Below, piece by piece: positions 33,283 to 49,732 of a stretch of DNA of 64,000 nt. The position numbers and the translations under genes are program-made. The DNA comes from an uncultured Alphaproteobacteria bacterium (lineage in GTDB: Bacteria; Pseudomonadota; Alphaproteobacteria; HIMB59; GCA-002718135), in NCBI GenBank assembly GCA_902540265.1, contig CACBLW010000004.1, positions 12,901-76,900 on the forward strand, written 5' to 3'. The notes below the pieces were generated by a model. That model ran no database searches. It saw only the letters and a list, made by a program, of their open reading frames with translations, and was not told the DNA's origin. Within the stretch, counting starts at the first letter, position 1. Every line of letters begins with the position of its first letter.

Positions 33283-35226
33283 TTATATATTAAAAAGTAC
33301 AACACTTATCGAGTGCGGTGGTAGTATTAAAAATCCTTTACTTGTTTTTAAGGAATTTTTTTTGATCTTAACACTTGAAGTGTTTTCATAAGTATTAAGG
33401 TCAACTTTATTAGATCCTTCAATACAATAATTTTCAGCAATCCTATCTAGATATGGAACTTTTAAAAGTATTTTCTCTGAACTTGATTTATTAACTACAG
33501 ACATACACATATGTTTTCCATTCATTGTTACTGCAGAGTCAATGAGTTTATTATTTTTATATTCAGGCTGTTTACCTAATTTAAAAGAAACAAAATTTGA
33601 AGAATTAACAACTGATTTTAAAATTTTACCTTTATGAAATTTTGTATAAAGTTCTAAAACAAGTGTTGTTGGAGTTTTCCAAATTTTCTTTTTTTCTATT
33701 CGGTAATTACCCATTACATTTATCAAATGATAAATGCCAGTGTTGGTTATTATATCCCCTCTATTTATACATGCGTTAAGAAGTGAAGCAGCATAAATTG
33801 CATCAGCAATATTATAATTCTCAATAAAATAAGGTGGAGTTGCTTCTACATAAGTGTTCCATTCATCAAAGGCTATTTTAATATTCTTATTGGAATATTT
33901 TTTTATTTCTCTTATCGTTCTATCTAACATTAATCTTACTTCTGTTGCGGCAGCAACAGTTGGAATATAACGTGTTTTATAATCTGGATGTTTTTTATCT
34001 TTCTCGGTTCTTATAGAATAATAATGGACACTCAATTCATCAATTTTTTCTTTAATATTTTTTAATACATACTCATTCCAATGACCAAAATGATCTGAAC
34101 AGGCACCAACTGCAATAAATCGTAATTTTTTATTTAATTTTTTTAACTCTTTTACAAAAGAATTATATTTATTTGCATAAGTAATTGGATCTGTATGACC
34201 AATTTGCCATCCTCCAAACATTTCATTTCCTATGAATATCGTTTGCAATTCATAAGGATTTTTTCTACCGTTTTTATATCTTAATTTTCCATATTTTGTA
34301 TTAATTGAACCAATCATATACTCGATCCAATTTTTTGCCTGTTCGATAGTACCATCACCAGTATTGATTGTAATCATTGGTTCGCTTCCAATATATTCAC
34401 ACCATTTCATAAATTCATCTGTACCTACATCGTTATACTCCCATTGATACCAAGCATGATCGTAGTAGGGAAGTCGATAATCTTTTTTTCCAACTCCATT
34501 CTGCCAATTATAACCTGAAAGAAAATTCCCTCCAGGCCAACGAATATAACTTGGCTTCCATTCTTTAATCATTTCTGTGATATCTTTTCTAAATCCAAAA
34601 ATTGTATTTTTTGGCATTAATGAACAGTTTGCAATAAAAATTGTTCCAGACTTAATAGAGATAGATAGTGTTTTGAGGCTATTACTTTTTTTAAAAGTAA
34701 ATGTTTTTTTAATTTTTTTCCAATTTTTATTTGCATTGAATGTAAAATTTATTTCTCCAATATTTATAAATACTTTCTGATTTTCACCTTTGAAATAAAT
34801 ACTGAATTCGTATTCATCTTTTGAGTCAATAATATTAATCTTTTGCTTAATACCTCTTTGTATTTTTGATTTTTCTCGAATAGTAATTTGTTGAGATTGT
34901 TTGCCACTCCCGTATCTACTAATAATCTCTTCACCTTTTACAATATATTCTGAGTTAGAATGTGCGTACATAACGTGTTTTGCAGAAGCGTTATAACCTT
35001 TCCAAGGCTGTACAATGCCAAAATCTAAATGATCATTTTCTAAACCATTGTTCCAAACTAATTTATCAGGACCACAAAATTTTCTATTTTCTACTACTTC
35101 TGCCCAAATTCCATTTCTATAAATTGCATCTCCAATATGTTCCAGATTAGTTCCAAACATATGTTTTGAAAGTTTTGATAGTATATTATTTTTTGAAAAA
35201 GAAATTGTTGCAATATTTTTATTCAT
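33283..35226 (-). CDS. cytoplasmic GH51-like glycoside hydrolase (alpha-L-arabinofuranosidase family)
   Basis: 647 aa with no signal peptide. It has the GH51-type segments FGTNLEHIGDAIYRNGIWAE and IRWPGGNFLSGYNW. The acid/base motif GNEMFGGWQIGH (Glu about 335) and the nucleophile motif FDEWNTY (Glu about 455) lie about 120 residues apart, as in GH51. A beta-sandwich-like insert spans about residues 60-205. Confidence 0.7.
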   Translation of the reverse strand: MNKNIATISFSKNNILSKLSKHMFGTNLEHIGDAIYRNGIWAEVVENRKFCGPDKLVWNNGLENDHLDFGIVQPWKGYNASAKHVMYAHSNSEYIVKGEEIISRYGSGKQSQQITIREKSKIQRGIKQKINIIDSKDEYEFSIYFKGENQKVFINIGEINFTFNANKNWKKIKKTFTFKKSNSLKTLSISIKSGTIFIANCSLMPKNTIFGFRKDITEMIKEWKPSYIRWPGGNFLSGYNWQNGVGKKDYRLPYYDHAWYQWEYNDVGTDEFMKWCEYIGSEPMITINTGDGTIEQAKNWIEYMIGSINTKYGKLRYKNGRKNPYELQTIFIGNEMFGGWQIGHTDPITYANKYNSFVKELKKLNKKLRFIAVGACSDHFGHWNEYVLKNIKEKIDELSVHYYSIRTEKDKKHPDYKTRYIPTVAAATEVRLMLDRTIREIKKYSNKNIKIAFDEWNTYVEATPPYFIENYNIADAIYAASLLNACINRGDIITNTGIYHLINVMGNYRIEKKKIWKTPTTLVLELYTKFHKGKILKSVVNSSNFVSFKLGKQPEYKNNKLIDSAVTMNGKHMCMSVVNKSSSEKILLKVPYLDRIAENYCIEGSNKVDLNTYENTSSVKIKKNSLKTSKGFLILPPHSISVVLFNI

Positions 35227-36274
35227 TCATCGCCCATATTTTATCACTGGGTAAATGAACATAAATTGTATCATCTGTTTTTATGTCTTGTAATCCTACA
35301 GATTGTAATGAGCATTCTAATTCTAAATTGTTTACTATAATTTTGTATCTAGTATGCGTTCCTGAAAATATTACTGATTTAATTAAGCCTTTGAATGAAT
35401 TATCATTGAAATCATTATTTTTACTTAACTTTATATTTTCGGGTCTAATAGTTATTATATTATCTTCATTTAAATCTGTATAATTTTCACCTTTGTAATG
35501 AACTGTTCCAATATTAGTAGATAGGTTATGATTATCTTTCTTTGCATTAATAAAATTAACTCCACCAAAAAATTTTGCAGCTTTTATATTTTTTGGTTTT
35601 TCATAATAATTTTTTGGAGAAGTAAAATTTTGGAGTTCGCCATCAAAAATTAAAGCTATCTTATCTGCTAGAAGAACCGCCTCTTCTTGATCATGTGTTA
35701 CAAATATTGTTGTTACTTTTAATTTTTGTTGAATAGTCACAATTAGATCTCGCATTTCATCTCTTAAATGCGCGTCAAGATTACTTAATGGTTCATCTAG
35801 AAGCAATATTCTAGGATTAGATATCAATGCTCTGGCTAGCGCAACTCTTTGTTGTTGACCTCCAGAAAGCTGTTTTGGCTTTCTTAATCCAATATCTGGT
35901 AATTTTACCAGTTCTAACATTTCTTTTACTTTTTGATCTATTATATTTTTATCTACACCTTTCATTTTTAATGCAAATCCAACATTTTCATTTACATTCA
36001 TATAAGGGAACAAAAGATAATTTTGGAAAACCATAACTACCCCTCTTTTTTCAGTTGGAATTTTTAATAGTGATTGCTCATCAAGAATAATATCTCCACT
36101 ATCAGGTTGAAATAATCCTGTGATCATTTTCAAAATAGTTGTTTTACCGCAACCTGAAGGTCCGAGAAATGCAACAAGTTCTCCACTTTCAATATCTAAA
36201 TTTACATTATTTACTGCTGGTCTATCCATGCTAGGAAAACTTTTAATTAAATTTTTAATATTTAATTTACTCAT
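35219..36274 (-). CDS. ABC importer ATP-binding protein with C-terminal regulatory/TOBE-like domain
   Basis: 351 aa with Walker A GPSGCGKTT, signature LSGGQQQR, and Walker B LLLDEP. Confidence 0.88.
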   Translation of the reverse strand: MSKLNIKNLIKSFPSMDRPAVNNVNLDIESGELVAFLGPSGCGKTTILKMITGLFQPDSGDIILDEQSLLKIPTEKRGVVMVFQNYLLFPYMNVNENVGFALKMKGVDKNIIDQKVKEMLELVKLPDIGLRKPKQLSGGQQQRVALARALISNPRILLLDEPLSNLDAHLRDEMRDLIVTIQQKLKVTTIFVTHDQEEAVLLADKIALIFDGELQNFTSPKNYYEKPKNIKAAKFFGGVNFINAKKDNHNLSTNIGTVHYKGENYTDLNEDNIITIRPENIKLSKNNDFNDNSFKGLIKSVIFSGTHTRYKIIVNNLELECSLQSVGLQDIKTDDTIYVHLPSDKIWAMNE

Positions 36275-49362: not shown

Positions 49363-49732
49363 AGTTTATTACGAAGATACCGATGCCTCTGAAAGAGTTT
49401 ATTATGCAAATTATCTAAAATTTCTTGAAAGAGGAAGAACAGATTACTTATATAACTTAGGCTTCACTCACAAAAATATACTAGAAAAATATAAATTCTA
49501 TTTTGTAGTAAAGAATTGCAAGATAGACTATAAAAAGCCAGCATACTTTGAGGATATTTTAAAAATTACGACAAAAATTATAAACATTTCTAAAGTAAAA
49601 ATATTGTTTCATCAGCAAATCAAAAAGAATGAAGAATTATTGGTTGATTCGGAAATATTAATTACTCCAGTTTTTTTTAATGGTAAAATTGCAAAAATTC
49701 CCAATGAAATGCTAGAAAAATTTTCGACATAA
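49346..49732 (+). CDS. YbgC/4HBT-family acyl-CoA thioesterase
   Basis: It has the hotdog-fold N-terminus [35 protein letters not shown]. I prefer the ATG at 49346 over 49334. Confidence 0.7.
   Translation: [128 protein letters not shown]

What the first reader, a model, noticed from the sequence alone, without database searches (positions are those of the whole stretch)
33283..49732. Sixteen-gene divergent carbohydrate-like island with a non-canonical enzyme mix and no regulator
Seen in the sequence: two tightly packed gene strings diverge from a 105-nt spacer (40760-40864).
- The minus string runs 40759 to 33283 and holds six genes: AraA/FucI-like isomerase, YnjB-like SBP, two permeases, ATPase, GH51-like hydrolase. 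Junctions are 33, 20, -1, 2 and -8 nt.
- The plus string runs 40865 to 49732 and holds ten genes: E1 alpha, E1 beta, IUNH-like, ketose 3-epimerase-like, DhaL, DhaK, LacD/YihT-like aldolase, beta-HAD, MR/MLE, YbgC thioesterase. Seven of its nine junctions are overlaps; the other two are 31 and 14 nt.
- This degree of translational coupling suggests one functional unit. The block contains no transcription factor, no E2/E3, no FGGY or PfkB sugar kinase, and no CUT1/CUT2 sugar SBP.

Established knowledge: each family is individually known. These are GH51 arabinofuranosidases, AraA/FucI aldose-ketose isomerases, DTE/DPE ketose 3-epimerases, DhaK/DhaL kinases for small ketols, LacD/YihT class I aldolases yielding DHAP plus an aldehyde, YihU/GarR-type reductases, and enolase-superfamily acid-sugar dehydratases.

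Inference: the set reproduces the logic seen in the fucose/rhamnose, sulfo-EMP (yihSVTU) and DHAP-shunt routes. That logic is glycoside uptake, hydrolysis, isomerisation, possibly 3-epimerisation, ketol phosphorylation, aldol cleavage to DHAP plus a short aldehyde, then aldehyde reduction. Here most steps are filled by a different protein family. I know of no characterised pathway with this composition. SAR11-type genomes are, to my knowledge, very poor in glycoside hydrolases, and their sugar use is strain-variable. This is therefore my best candidate for an undescribed system, possibly a pentofuranoside, deoxy-sugar, sulfo-sugar or rare-ketose route.
Basis: partly seen in the sequence, partly recalled or inferred. 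Interest (0 to 1): 0.8.

Follow-up and report, generated by a model that had tools for sequence, protein, structure and literature searches.

The report
SAR11 glycoside catabolic island, substrate unknown
Some ocean SAR11 bacteria carry, and close relatives lack, a 15-gene block with an importer and enzymes that seem to break an unidentified small sugar conjugate into central metabolites, using an enzyme combination that no paper I found describes.

Summary
The gene layout is real and nearly every family call holds. Two details need correcting.

- The unit has 15 genes (33283-49362), not 16. The YbgC thioesterase is a core flank gene. In at least 17 related metagenome contigs it sits directly beside cysE, with no island between them.
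- The absence of a regulator is specific to this lineage. Sister clades carry a GntR/UTRA gene between E1beta and the nucleoside-hydrolase-like gene.

The same block occurs in at least four genomic contexts in uncultured marine Pelagibacteraceae-type cells. Its exact proteins occur on hundreds to more than 999 metagenome contigs.

A deeper core is shared with Chloroflexota, Trueperaceae, Rhizobiaceae and Fraserbacteria: an AraA-fold isomerase, DhaK/DhaL, a YnjB-type ABC importer, and usually a LacD-type aldolase and the nucleoside-hydrolase-like enzyme. The E1alpha/beta, beta-HAD and MR/MLE genes are additions found only in the marine clade.

Best model: import of a probably charged furanosidic conjugate, cytoplasmic hydrolysis, isomerisation, C1 phosphorylation by ATP-dependent DhaKL, then aldol cleavage to DHAP plus a short aldehyde. 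That aldehyde is reduced by a YihU-like enzyme, or oxidised by an ALDH in sister clades.

The substrate is unresolved. Candidates are an L-arabino- or pentofuranoside, a sulfonated or otherwise anionic sugar, or a 5-substituted ribose. I found no characterised pathway that matches.

The parts
33283..35226 (-). Cytoplasmic GH51-family glycosidase (647 aa) with an insert of about 150 aa near the N-terminus
   Evidence: Pfam Alpha-L-AF_C and ASD1_dom. 240 bits to Araf51 3ug3 over residues 209-642. The GNEM acid/base and FDEWN nucleophile motifs are present and there is no signal peptide. The ArfA equivalog cut-off is not reached, 238 against 625.
35219..36274 (-). ABC ATPase with a TOBE domain, PotA/PhnT2-like
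36277..37140 (-). ABC permease, PotC/ModB/PhnV type, not a CUT1 sugar type
   Evidence: 94% identical across marine clades.
37140..38015 (-). ABC permease, PotB/CysT/PhnU type
   Evidence: The exact sequence is on at least 999 contigs and NCBI names it 'Pelagibacteraceae bacterium'.
38036..39286 (-). Periplasmic substrate-binding protein of the YnjB subfamily (PotD/FbpA/MotA/AfuA-type fold), with a signal peptide
   Evidence: NF008633 scores 380, above its cut-off of 203. It is 65-73% identical between Pelagibacteraceae and Chloroflexota, the most conserved protein of the system. Its fold neighbours all bind charged ligands.
39320..40759 (-). AraA-fold aldose-ketose isomerase from a family with no solved structure
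   Evidence: No Pfam or PDB sequence hit. The only curated relative is the SftI sulfoquinovose isomerase, 138 bits against a cut-off of 700. The AlphaFold model has pLDDT 92; Foldseek gives L-arabinose isomerases TM 0.78 and L-fucose isomerase TM 0.73.
40760..40864 (.). Divergent promoter spacer
   Evidence: Best promoter-like site of the region, at 40793-40820. A conserved TTGACA block is shared with relatives whose isomerase is 82% identical. No Rfam match.
40865..41842 (+). PDH-like ThDP-dependent E1 alpha subunit (marine-clade addition)
   Evidence: E1_dh 226 bits. Best PDB match is human PDH E1alpha, 178 bits. Found only in marine-clade loci.
41839..42855 (+). PDH-like E1 beta subunit without a lipoyl domain
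   Evidence: PRK09212 scores 349, above its cut-off of 321. 85-91% identical across marine clades. No E2 or E3 among the island genes or the flanking window ORFs scanned (about 24.7-63.7 kb).
42887..43996 (+). Nucleoside-hydrolase-like (IU_nuc_hydro / Sde182_NH-like) glycosidase
   Evidence: 66 bits to Pfam. N-terminal Asp cluster DTDTANEIDD. Homologs sit in 55 of 88 loci across phyla.
43993..44835 (+). Ketose 3-epimerase-like TIM barrel
   Evidence: AP_endonuc_2. D-psicose 3-epimerase model 206 bits against a cut-off of 300. 129 bits to 2hk0.
44832..45443 (+). DhaL, the nucleotide-binding subunit
   Evidence: Dak2. 129.7 bits against a cut-off of 138.3.
45427..46425 (+). DhaK, the substrate-binding subunit. 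No DhaM is present, so the kinase is presumably ATP-dependent.
   Evidence: Dak1 317 bits. 30% identical to E. coli DhaK, with the equivalents of His56, Asp109 and His218 kept. No DhaM in 90 sequences.
46386..47348 (+). LacD-type class I aldolase
   Evidence: PRK12858 scores 211, above its cut-off of 184. About 108 bits to LacD structures. The Schiff-base Lys (K211) aligns with YihT K193. Absent from L028/L029 and replaced by an ALDH in L026/L027.
47363..48238 (+). Beta-hydroxyacid dehydrogenase closest to the sulfolactaldehyde reductase YihU
   Evidence: NF012005 scores 300 against a cut-off of 348. PDB 6sm7 scores 211 bits; the next hit scores 152. 38% identical to YihU, with the K..NNYMS motif containing the Asn174 and Ser178 equivalents kept.
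48235..49362 (+). MR/MLE (enolase superfamily) enzyme. Its membership of the island is uncertain.
   Evidence: 44% identical to the MR/MLE that ends the island in other contexts. 61% identical to a copy that sits alone between ybgC and cysE in L092.
49334..49732 (+). YbgC-type thioesterase. This is a core flank gene and NOT part of the island.
   Evidence: It lies directly beside cysE in at least 17 island-less contigs. A GNAT gene takes its place next to the island in L002-L004.

Best explanation
This is a 15-gene flexible-genome catabolic island of Pelagibacteraceae-type marine bacteria. It appears to take up and break down a small glycoconjugate that is probably charged and furanosidic.

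Steps, each marked as inferred; none was assayed:
1. A periplasmic YnjB-type SBP with a PotBC-type ABC importer brings the conjugate in. This is inferred from family and signal peptide.
2. Two cytoplasmic hydrolases, a catalytically intact GH51 and a nucleoside-hydrolase-like enzyme, release a free aldose. This is inferred.
3. The AraA-fold isomerase converts the aldose to a 2-ketose, and the DTE-like 3-epimerase may adjust C3. This is inferred from fold and family.
4. A DhaK/DhaL kinase phosphorylates the C1 hydroxyl next to the carbonyl. I infer it is ATP-dependent because no DhaM is present. The catalytic His/Asp/His residues are conserved, and the DhaK-DhaL-isomerase genes overlap in Chloroflexota operons.
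5. The LacD-type class I aldolase yields DHAP plus a short aldehyde. This is inferred.
6. The YihU-like beta-HAD reduces that aldehyde; in sister clades an ALDH oxidises it instead. This is inferred.

My preferred sugar class has the L-arabino or D-galacto configuration, or is a pentofuranoside more generally. GH51, the AraA fold and the (3S,4S) stereochemistry of LacD-type aldolases all fit L-arabinose, then L-ribulose, then L-ribulose-1-phosphate, then DHAP plus glycolaldehyde. That would be a natural counterpart of the engineered pentose-1-phosphate pathways, which also use a tagatose 3-epimerase. The transporter type and the YihU-like reductase suggest the conjugate or the sugar carries an anionic group.

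The PDH-like E1alpha/beta and the MR/MLE enzyme are additions of the marine clade. Their role is unknown. They might convert a C3 acid product to acetyl-CoA using the housekeeping E2/E3.

Confidence is about 0.55 for the general ketose-1-phosphate mechanism and about 0.25-0.3 for the pentofuranoside identity. The value entered, 0.45, reflects the combined statement.
For: - Layout and coupling.
- Family assignments.
- The block is conserved in order across at least four contexts.
- The empty site proves it is an insertion.
- The core is conserved across phyla. Of 88 loci plus the window, the isomerase is in 86, DhaK in 74, the SBP in 66, DhaL in 63, the NH-like enzyme in 55 and the aldolase in 46.
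- A self-contained 10-gene version occurs in Rhizobiaceae-type loci L005 and L083: isomerase, SBP, two permeases, GH51, ATPase, epimerase, DhaL, DhaK and aldolase, plus an NH-like gene in L005.
- The GH51 catalytic motifs are present.
- The DhaK catalytic residues are present.
- The aldolase Schiff-base Lys is present.
- The SBP's fold neighbours bind charged ligands, including opines and sugar phosphates.
- The engineered AraA + tagatose-epimerase + C1-kinase + aldolase + reductase/ALDH pathways are described in PMC6443609.
Against: - No enzyme was assayed and no ligand is known.
- The SBP and permeases are not of a sugar (CUT1/CUT2) type.
- Most Chloroflexota loci lack GH51 and the epimerase, yet their SBP is 65-73% identical. 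The common ligand is therefore not simply an arabinofuranoside.
- Two marine sub-clades lack the aldolase.
- The reductase resembles a sulfonate-specific enzyme, not FucO or a glycolaldehyde reductase.
- The E1alpha/beta subunits are highly conserved across the marine clades (E1beta 85-91%, exceeded only by the SBP and permeases), and the model does not explain them.
- DhaK-family kinases acting on C5 or C6 ketoses are not established, to my knowledge.
Confidence: 0.45

Rival explanations
1. A variant of sulfoglycolysis (sulfo-EMP-like) for sulfoquinovose or another sulfonated or otherwise anionic sugar. An SftI-like isomerase makes the sulfo-ketose, DhaKL replaces the PfkB kinase YihV, a LacD/YihT-family aldolase gives DHAP plus sulfolactaldehyde, and the YihU-like reductase gives DHPS. 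An SSADH/GabD-like ALDH in L026/L027 would give sulfolactate instead. MR/MLE and E1alpha/beta might then process a C3 sulfonate or acid.
For: - The only curated relative of the isomerase is the SQ isomerase SftI.
- The beta-HAD is clearly closest to YihU: 300 bits on its equivalog model against a best of 218 for the other beta-HAD models, and 211 against 152 bits among PDB sequences. It is 38% identical, with the Asn174/Ser178 sulfonate-pocket motif kept.
- The transporter is of a type that carries charged solutes.
- The ALDH in L027 is SSADH-like, and the SafD model also hits it.
- L007 has luciferase-like monooxygenase, flavin reductase, AKR and YeiH genes next to the core, reminiscent of smoABC.
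Against: - No sulfoquinovosidase (YihQ), mutarotase, YihS, YihV or CsqR homolog occurs in any of 90 sequences.
- The two hydrolases are furanosidase and N-ribosidase types. By established knowledge, GH51 stereochemistry does not suit alpha-D-quinovosides.
- The SftI score is far below its cut-off, 138 against 700.
- The aldolase is only 21% identical to YihT.
- The YihU equivalog cut-off is missed.
- A 2026 review does not list Pelagibacter among SQ degraders.
Confidence: 0.15
2. A DHAP-shunt-like salvage route for 5-substituted riboses, such as 5-deoxyribose, 5-methylthioribose or arsenosugar-type 5-dimethylarsinoyl-ribose. The nucleoside-hydrolase-like enzyme would release the sugar from nucleosides or ribosides. 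The order of steps would be isomerase first, then a C1 kinase. The products would be DHAP plus a 2-substituted acetaldehyde, which is then reduced or oxidised.
For: - The NH-like hydrolase is the hydrolase that belongs to the core across phyla, in 55 loci.
- Some Chloroflexota loci add an ADP-ribosylglycohydrolase and a PNP/AMP-nucleosidase-like gene.
- A blocked C5 would explain why ribokinase and the pentose phosphate pathway are bypassed (inference).
- The Chloroflexota ALDH is closest to the betaine-aldehyde and phenylacetaldehyde types, which act on X-CH2-CHO substrates.
Against: - The NH-like match is weak, 66 bits to Pfam and 39 bits to PDB sequences, and its Asp motif is atypical.
- Neither the GH51 enzyme nor the 3-epimerase is explained.
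- MTA and 5'-deoxyadenosine are neutral, while the SBP's fold class binds charged ligands.
- No MtnK, MtnA or class II aldolase is present.
Confidence: 0.12
3. Import of a phosphorylated sugar, in the manner of AfuABC, followed by an analogue of the tagatose-6-phosphate pathway. The isomerase would play the LacAB role, DhaKL the LacC role at C1, and the LacD-type aldolase would do its canonical reaction to give DHAP plus glyceraldehyde-3-phosphate.
For: - The aldolase passes the tagatose-bisphosphate aldolase subfamily cut-off.
- AfuA, which binds sugar phosphates, is among the SBP's fold neighbours.
- In 25 Chloroflexota-type loci the operon includes an MFS transporter. The one example scanned (L006) matches the organophosphate:phosphate antiporter models (PgtP/UhpC) far below their cut-offs, 97 against 408 bits.
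- The 10-gene versions need no enzyme to process an aldehyde.
Against: - The two glycosidases, the reductase and the ALDH would have no role.
- AraA-fold isomerases act on free sugars (established knowledge).
- Fold similarity to AfuA is only TM 0.6 at 12% identity.
Confidence: 0.08
4. This is not one system. It would be an arabinoside uptake and hydrolysis operon, a DhaKL glycerone kinase module and an acetoin or pyruvate E1 module that merely sit together.
For: - E1alpha/beta, beta-HAD and MR/MLE are restricted to the marine clade.
- L088 has only the isomerase, the transporter, GH51 and GntR.
- MR/MLE occurs alone at the same site in L092.
Against: - The 15 genes keep the same order in at least four flanking contexts, with overlapping stop and start codons.
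- DhaK, DhaL and the isomerase overlap in a different gene order in Chloroflexota, and they co-occur in 63-74 of 86 loci.
Confidence: 0.07

Closest known systems
L-fucose / L-rhamnose / D-arabinose catabolism (FucIKA-FucO/AldA, RhaABD) and the engineered pentose-1-phosphate pathways (AraA + D-tagatose 3-epimerase + C1 kinase + aldolase; PMC6443609)
   Same: The logic is the same: aldose-ketose isomerase of the AraA/FucI fold, phosphorylation at C1, aldol cleavage to DHAP plus a short aldehyde, then reduction or oxidation of the aldehyde. A ketose 3-epimerase sits between the isomerase and the kinase, as in the engineered routes.
   Different: The kinase is DhaK/DhaL rather than FGGY. The aldolase is a class I LacD type rather than a class II FucA/RhaD type. 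The reductase is a beta-HAD rather than the iron-ADH FucO. The transporter is a cluster-D ABC system. Two glycosidases and a PDH-like E1alpha/beta are added.
Sulfo-EMP sulfoglycolysis (E. coli yihOPQRSTUV-csqR)
   Same: The pathway has the same shape. The reductase is the closest known relative of YihU (38% identity, pocket motif kept). The aldolase is in the same Pfam family as YihT. The isomerase's only curated relative is the sulfo-TAL isomerase SftI.
   Different: There is no sulfoquinovosidase, mutarotase, YihS-type isomerase, PfkB kinase, DeoR regulator or YihO/P permease. All equivalog cut-offs are missed. The hydrolases are of the wrong type for alpha-quinovosides.
Tagatose-6-phosphate pathway (LacABCD) and LacD aldolases
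   Same: The aldolase passes the tagatose-1,6-bisphosphate aldolase subfamily model, and the best solved relatives are LacD enzymes.
   Different: There is no LacAB isomerase and no LacC kinase. The lacD equivalog model is not reached, 113 against 432.
Dihydroxyacetone and erythrulose kinases (DhaKLM; ATP-dependent two-domain DAKs)
   Same: The Dak1 and Dak2 domains and the catalytic His/Asp/His residues are conserved.
   Different: There is no DhaM or PTS link. The scores fall below the equivalog cut-offs. The genes are embedded in a sugar pathway and translationally coupled to an aldose isomerase.
E. coli YnjBCD and the other SBPs that Foldseek returned as fold neighbours (PotD, FbpA, PhnS, MotA, AfuA, MctA)
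   Same: The SBP is a member of the YnjB subfamily by the NCBIfam cut-off and shares the fold of these proteins.
   Different: The ligand of YnjB itself is, to my knowledge, unknown. Identity to any SBP of known ligand is only 12-18%.

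Membership tests
GH51 alpha-L-arabinofuranosidase | GH51 catalytic (beta/alpha)8 domain plus the C-terminal Alpha-L-AF_C domain | tested here: met
   Pfam PF06964 scores 55 bits, above its cut-off of 27. 240 bits to Araf51 over residues 209-642.
GH51 alpha-L-arabinofuranosidase | Acid/base Glu in the GNEM motif and nucleophile Glu in the FDEWN motif | tested here: met
   IFIGNEMFGG and IAFDEWNTY are read in the translation. The motif identities come from my own knowledge of GH51.
GH51 alpha-L-arabinofuranosidase | Equivalog-level similarity to a characterised arabinofuranosidase; activity on alpha-L-Araf | tested here: not met
   The ArfA equivalog scores 238 bits against a cut-off of 625. 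Activity is not testable here.
AraA/FucI aldose-ketose isomerase superfamily | Three-domain AraA/FucI fold | tested here: met
   The AlphaFold model has pLDDT 92. Foldseek gives TM 0.78 to L-arabinose isomerases over about 490 columns and TM 0.73 to FucI.
AraA/FucI aldose-ketose isomerase superfamily | Sequence-model membership and conserved metal/catalytic residues | tested here: inconclusive
   No Pfam hit, and no AraA or FucI NCBIfam hit. A profile search gives FucI at E = 0.017. A low-probability hhalign alignment places E293 on AraA E306 and H353 on AraA H350.
SftI sulfoquinovose isomerase | NCBIfam equivalog score | tested here: not met
   138 bits against a cut-off of 700.
DhaK/DhaL dihydroxyacetone kinase | Dak1 and Dak2 domains, and the substrate-binding His/Asp/His of DhaK | tested here: met
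   Dak1 scores 317 bits and Dak2 105 bits. GSGHEP, NHSGD and GVHGE align with E. coli His56, Asp109 and His218. The residue roles come from my own knowledge.
DhaK/DhaL dihydroxyacetone kinase | Equivalog score; DhaM phosphoryl donor for the PTS-dependent type | tested here: not met
   325.8 against a cut-off of 406 and 129.7 against 138.3. No DhaM in 90 sequences.
LacD-type class I aldolase | Subfamily model and Schiff-base lysine | tested here: met
   PRK12858 scores 211, above its cut-off of 184. K211 aligns with YihT K193.
YihT sulfofructose-phosphate aldolase | Close similarity to YihT; Arg253 sulfonate/phosphate pocket | tested here: inconclusive
   21% identity, E = 3e-7. The Arg is present in GRSLW, but I recall it is also present in LacD enzymes, so it does not discriminate.
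YihU sulfolactaldehyde reductase | Sulfonate pocket formed by Asn174, Ser178 and the Arg123 backbone (PMC8006165) | tested here: met
   KIINNYMS aligns with KLINNYMS, and R125 aligns with R123.
YihU sulfolactaldehyde reductase | NCBIfam equivalog cut-off | tested here: not met
   300.4 against 348. It is still the best PDB match by 59 bits.
Sulfo-EMP gene cluster | Sulfoquinovosidase, mutarotase, YihS isomerase, YihV kinase | tested here: not met
   tblastn finds none in the window or in 89 related loci.
Pyruvate dehydrogenase complex E1 | Heterotetrameric E1alpha/E1beta with ThDP domains | tested here: met
   E1_dh, Transket_pyr and Transketolase_C domains. The E1beta subfamily model scores 349, above its cut-off of 321.
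Pyruvate dehydrogenase complex E1 | Adjacent E2 and E3; E1alpha equivalog score | tested here: not met
   No E2 or E3 among the island genes or the flanking window ORFs scanned (about 24.7-63.7 kb). E1alpha scores 304 against a cut-off of 394.
Ketose 3-epimerase (DPE/DTE) | Xylose-isomerase-like TIM barrel; equivalog score | tested here: inconclusive
   Pfam is met at 120 bits. The psicose 3-epimerase equivalog scores 206 against a cut-off of 300. 129 bits to 2hk0.
YnjB-type ABC substrate-binding protein | NCBIfam subfamily cut-off | tested here: met
   380 bits, above the cut-off of 203, over the full length.
Flexible genomic island | Presence or absence at a conserved site in close relatives | tested here: met
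   L090 carries the island. L091 (CysE 95-96% identical) and L094 (88-89% identical), plus at least 15 others, have ybgC directly beside cysE.
Flexible genomic island | Mobility genes, tRNA target | tested here: not met
   No tRNA in the window. No integrase or transposase among the annotated genes.

The most novel reading that the evidence does not exclude
The island encodes a previously unrecognised pathway that is abundant in the ocean. By this pathway a subset of SAR11 would consume an anionic (for example sulfonated) or furanosidic sugar conjugate from phytoplankton, using a DhaK/DhaL ketose-1-kinase and a PDH-like E1 in roles not known for those families. The same transporter, isomerase and DhaKL core would define a new catabolic pathway shared with sponge-symbiont and soil Chloroflexota.
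Probability: 0.3. Interest if true: 0.85.

Novelty: new variant of a known kind. Interest (0 to 1): 0.66.

Why it matters
SAR11 is the most abundant heterotroph in the ocean and is thought to use very few carbohydrates. A glycoside-hydrolase-containing island that is itself abundant would add a substrate class to SAR11 carbon cycling, and possibly to its sulfur cycling. Exact copies of its proteins occur on hundreds to more than 999 metagenome contigs. The island would also mark an ecotype difference.

The cross-phylum core is a well-defined, experimentally tractable target for discovering a pathway. That core is a strikingly conserved SBP, an AraA-fold isomerase from a family with no solved structure, and a DhaKL kinase. 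It could also extend the known substrate range of the DhaK kinase family.

Tried and rejected
- **Literature.** Ten full-text searches found no description of this gene set. They covered SAR11/Pelagibacter with sulfoquinovose, arabinofuranosidase or DHA kinase; YnjB; DhaK/DhaL with isomerase and aldolase; DUF1593 and NH-like; and pentulose-1-phosphates with DhaK.
- **Riboswitch.** I looked for one in the spacer that could name the ligand. Rfam finds nothing in the island.
- **PDB sequence searches** for the isomerase and the SBP gave no hits.
- **SBP fold search.** It gave only class-level neighbours, TM 0.6 or less, so no ligand could be read off.
- **Malonate-semialdehyde route.** I tested whether the ALDH of sister clades is a CoA-acylating MmsA/IolA type, which would point to an inositol-like route. 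It is not: the best hits are betaine-aldehyde, phenylacetaldehyde and SSADH types.
- **YbgC as a pathway thioesterase for an E1-derived acyl-CoA.** The empty-site evidence rejects this.
- **DhaKL acting only on glycerol-derived dihydroxyacetone**, as suggested for Faecalicatena SQ clusters. I rejected this as the main role, for two reasons. No glycerol dehydrogenase is present, and DhaKL is coupled to the isomerase across phyla.
- **Exact look-up of the window isomerase** found no record.

Full report
**Observation.** They diverge from a 105-nt spacer. That spacer contains the best sigma-70-like site of the whole 18-kb region, TTGTCA-16-TATAAT at 40793-40820. It also contains a TTGACA block conserved in relatives whose isomerase is 82% identical. 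No tRNA and no Rfam element lies in the block.

**Family assignments.** Pfam, NCBIfam and PDB sequence searches confirm nearly every call.
- The 647-aa protein is a GH51 enzyme, 240 bits to T. maritima Araf51. It has the GNEM and FDEWN catalytic motifs, no signal peptide, and an insert of about 150 aa.
- The SBP passes the YnjB subfamily cut-off, 380 above 203. The permeases and ATPase are of the PotBC/PhnUV/PotA kind, not CUT1 or CUT2.
- The 'isomerase' has no Pfam or PDB sequence hit. Its only curated relative is the sulfoquinovose isomerase SftI, 138 bits against a cut-off of 700. Its AlphaFold model (pLDDT 92) superposes on L-arabinose isomerases over the full length, TM 0.78, better than on L-fucose isomerase.
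- DhaK keeps the equivalents of His56, Asp109 and His218 of E. coli DhaK. No DhaM exists in any related locus.
- The aldolase passes the tagatose-bisphosphate aldolase subfamily model, is LacD-like, and is only 21% identical to YihT. The Schiff-base lysine is present.
- The beta-HAD is distinctly closest to the sulfolactaldehyde reductase YihU. Among PDB sequences YihU scores 211 bits and the next hit 152. Identity is 38%, and the NNYMS motif holding the published sulfonate-pocket residues is kept. It misses the equivalog cut-off, 300 against 348.
- E1alpha and E1beta are PDH-like, and E1beta passes the PDH subfamily cut-off. No E2 or E3 was found among the island genes or the flanking window ORFs that were scanned, about 24.7-63.7 kb.

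**Source organism and abundance.** Exact copies of the permease and the SBP are named 'Pelagibacteraceae bacterium' by NCBI. The exact permease is on at least 999 contigs, E1beta on 834 and the SBP on 112. The isomerase has hundreds of marine homologs at 76-98% identity.

A scan of one genome per species (185,579 species) found relatives of the isomerase in 181 candidate stretches, of which the best 80 were fetched. About 24 of the 80 are marine single-cell or metagenome-assembled genomes at 76-99% identity. None of the 80 best hits is a named cultured Pelagibacter. The rest are mostly Chloroflexota (Anaerolineae, including sponge symbionts), with a few Trueperaceae, Rhizobiaceae and other Alphaproteobacteria and a Fraserbacteria genome, at 46-49% identity.

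**Extent of the unit.** The same gene order, from GH51 through MR/MLE, recurs in at least four different flanking contexts, so the block is one heritable unit.

A metagenome scan anchored on the flanking cysE gene found the empty site. In at least 17 contigs the order is PhyH-SBF-YbgC | cysE-PALP-CysMet-PRA-PH-M50, with ybgC about 90 nt from cysE. Two of these contigs have CysE 95-96% and 88-89% identical to the window's. Contig L090 carries the island.

The YbgC thioesterase is therefore a core flank gene, and the island has 15 genes. One contig (L092) has only an MR/MLE gene between ybgC and cysE. The window's MR/MLE is 61% identical to that copy, but only 44% identical to the MR/MLE that ends the island elsewhere. 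The right-hand boundary, 48238 or 49362, is therefore ambiguous.

**Regulator.** Relatives whose isomerase is 82-85% identical carry a GntR-family gene (GntR/UTRA by Pfam in L002-L004) between E1beta and the NH-like gene. In the window that position is a 31-nt gap. A more distant relative (L088) ends its operon with a GntR/UTRA gene. The lack of a regulator is therefore a feature of this lineage, not of the system.

**Core and accessory parts.** I clustered all ORFs of 88 loci plus the window.

| Protein family | Loci with it |
|---|---|
| Isomerase | 86 |
| DhaK | 74 |
| SBP | 66 |
| ATPase | 66 |
| DhaL | 63 |
| NH-like hydrolase | 55 |
| LacD-like aldolase | 46 |
| GH51 | 30 (23 marine) |
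| 3-epimerase | 24 |

- E1alpha/beta and MR/MLE occur only in the marine clade, and the island-type beta-HAD almost only there (one non-marine locus, L086).
- Chloroflexota instead have a tight operon: (ALDH)-aldolase-thiolase-DUF35-DhaK-DhaL-isomerase-(MFS)-family III CoA-transferase. The one MFS scanned (L006) matches organophosphate:phosphate antiporter models far below their cut-offs.
- Rhizobiaceae-type loci (L005, L083) have a self-contained version: isomerase, SBP, two permeases, GH51, ATPase, epimerase, DhaL, DhaK and aldolase, plus an NH-like gene in L005.
- The SBP is the most conserved protein, 65-73% identical between Pelagibacteraceae and Chloroflexota. The isomerase is 47% identical, DhaK 41% and the aldolase 24%. 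This argues for one common ligand.
- Two marine sub-clades depart from the pattern. L028 and L029 lack the aldolase, and L026 and L027 have an SSADH-like ALDH in its place.

**Mechanism.** The conserved adjacency and overlap of the isomerase with DhaK and DhaL, the intact catalytic residues, and the frequent LacD-type aldolase support one route: aldose, then 2-ketose, then ketose-1-phosphate, then DHAP plus an aldehyde. The aldehyde is then reduced by the beta-HAD or oxidised by an ALDH.

Upstream, a periplasmic SBP and importer and two cytoplasmic hydrolases imply that a small glycoconjugate is imported whole. By established stereochemistry, GH51 (alpha-L-Araf and beta-D-Galf), AraA (L-arabinose and D-galactose) and tagatose-type (3S,4S) aldolases all fit the L-arabino or D-galacto configuration. 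L-ribulose-1-phosphate would give DHAP plus glycolaldehyde.

The combination of an AraA-type isomerase, a tagatose 3-epimerase, a C1 kinase, an aldolase and a reductase or ALDH is exactly the design of the engineered pentose-1-phosphate pathways (PMC6443609).

Several facts count against a plain arabinoside:
- All fold neighbours of the SBP bind charged ligands: polyamines, metal-citrate, iron, opines and Amadori compounds, sugar phosphates, aminoethylphosphonate.
- Most Chloroflexota loci lack GH51.
- The reductase looks like a sulfonate-recognising enzyme.

I therefore commit to the ketose-1-phosphate mechanism at about 0.55. I rank the pentofuranoside or L-arabino sugar first at about 0.25-0.3, possibly carrying or attached to an anionic group.

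The sulfoglycolysis-like reading comes next, at about 0.15. It has two enzyme-level pointers, SftI and YihU. But no sulfoquinovosidase, mutarotase, YihS or YihV occurs in 90 sequences, and the hydrolases are of the wrong type. A DHAP-shunt-like route for 5-substituted riboses (about 0.12), a sugar-phosphate route (about 0.08) and 'not one system' (about 0.07) follow.

The role of the highly conserved PDH-like E1alpha/beta and of MR/MLE is unexplained. One speculative chain would run from a C3 hydroxy-acid, through elimination by MR/MLE, to pyruvate or an analogue, and then through E1 with the housekeeping E2/E3 to an acyl-CoA.

**Comparison with known systems and novelty.** The system works like the fucose, rhamnose and D-arabinose routes and like sulfo-EMP. 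It is not a member of any of them, because the defining enzymes are absent or replaced by other families (see the membership table). No paper in the searchable library describes it, and a 2026 review does not count Pelagibacter among sulfoquinovose degraders.

I rate it a new variant of a known kind: a sugar catabolic cluster with non-orthologous parts and an unknown substrate. I score interest at 0.66, for four reasons. The island is abundant. It sits in an organism thought to be nearly devoid of glycoside hydrolases. It defines a conserved cross-phylum core. It is directly testable.

Noticed in passing
window 23754-23833 (+) and 24512-24597 (+): An IMES-4 RNA motif (101.7 bits) and a glycine riboswitch aptamer (61.4 bits) lie upstream of gcvT (24679-25803), followed by gcvH and gcvP.
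   Followed up: no
window 57566-59636 (+): An MFS transporter (57566-58726) is followed by a second, divergent beta-HAD paralog (58776-59636), which is 24% identical to YihU.
   Followed up: partly
window 54288-57447 (-) and 59875-63707 (+): On the minus strand there are PsiE-family, DCC1-like, Sulfotransferase_5 and class IV aminotransferase genes. On the plus strand there are a second GcvT-like gene, two EamA transporters and a DHDPS-family gene.
   Followed up: no
L092 1296-2420 (locus coordinates): One metagenome contig has only an MR/MLE gene between ybgC and cysE, overlapping ybgC. It is 61% identical to the window's copy. It is either a remnant of island loss or a resident gene to which the island was joined.
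   Followed up: partly
L011 (NYXO01000066.1); L025-L027: A contig filed under a 'Methanobacteriota archaeon' MAG carries a 98%-identical copy of part of the island and is probably mis-binned. The 77% clade is filed under Piscirickettsiaceae or 'gamma proteobacterium' single-cell and metagenome-assembled genomes.
   Followed up: no
L007 12673-17536 (locus coordinates): In one 6-Mb Chloroflexota-type genome the core operon lies next to YeiH-family, GFO/IDH/MocA, aldo-keto reductase, luciferase-like monooxygenase and flavin reductase genes. That set is reminiscent of the sulfo-SMO smoABC genes.
   Followed up: no
L006, L007, L072, L084, L086 (locus coordinates around 5000-13000): Chloroflexota and Fraserbacteria versions couple the isomerase-DhaKL-aldolase core to an archaeal-type thiolase, a DUF35 protein, a family III CoA-transferase, an ALDH and an MFS transporter. 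Some also have ADP-ribosylglycohydrolase, PNP/AMP-nucleosidase-like and GH42 genes.
   Followed up: partly
window 32624-33202 (-) and upstream 33203-33282: The flank gene is a serine O-acetyltransferase (cysE) by source annotation. About 60 nt of its upstream region is conserved whether or not the island is present. This places the left island junction roughly 60-80 nt upstream of the cysE start.
   Followed up: partly
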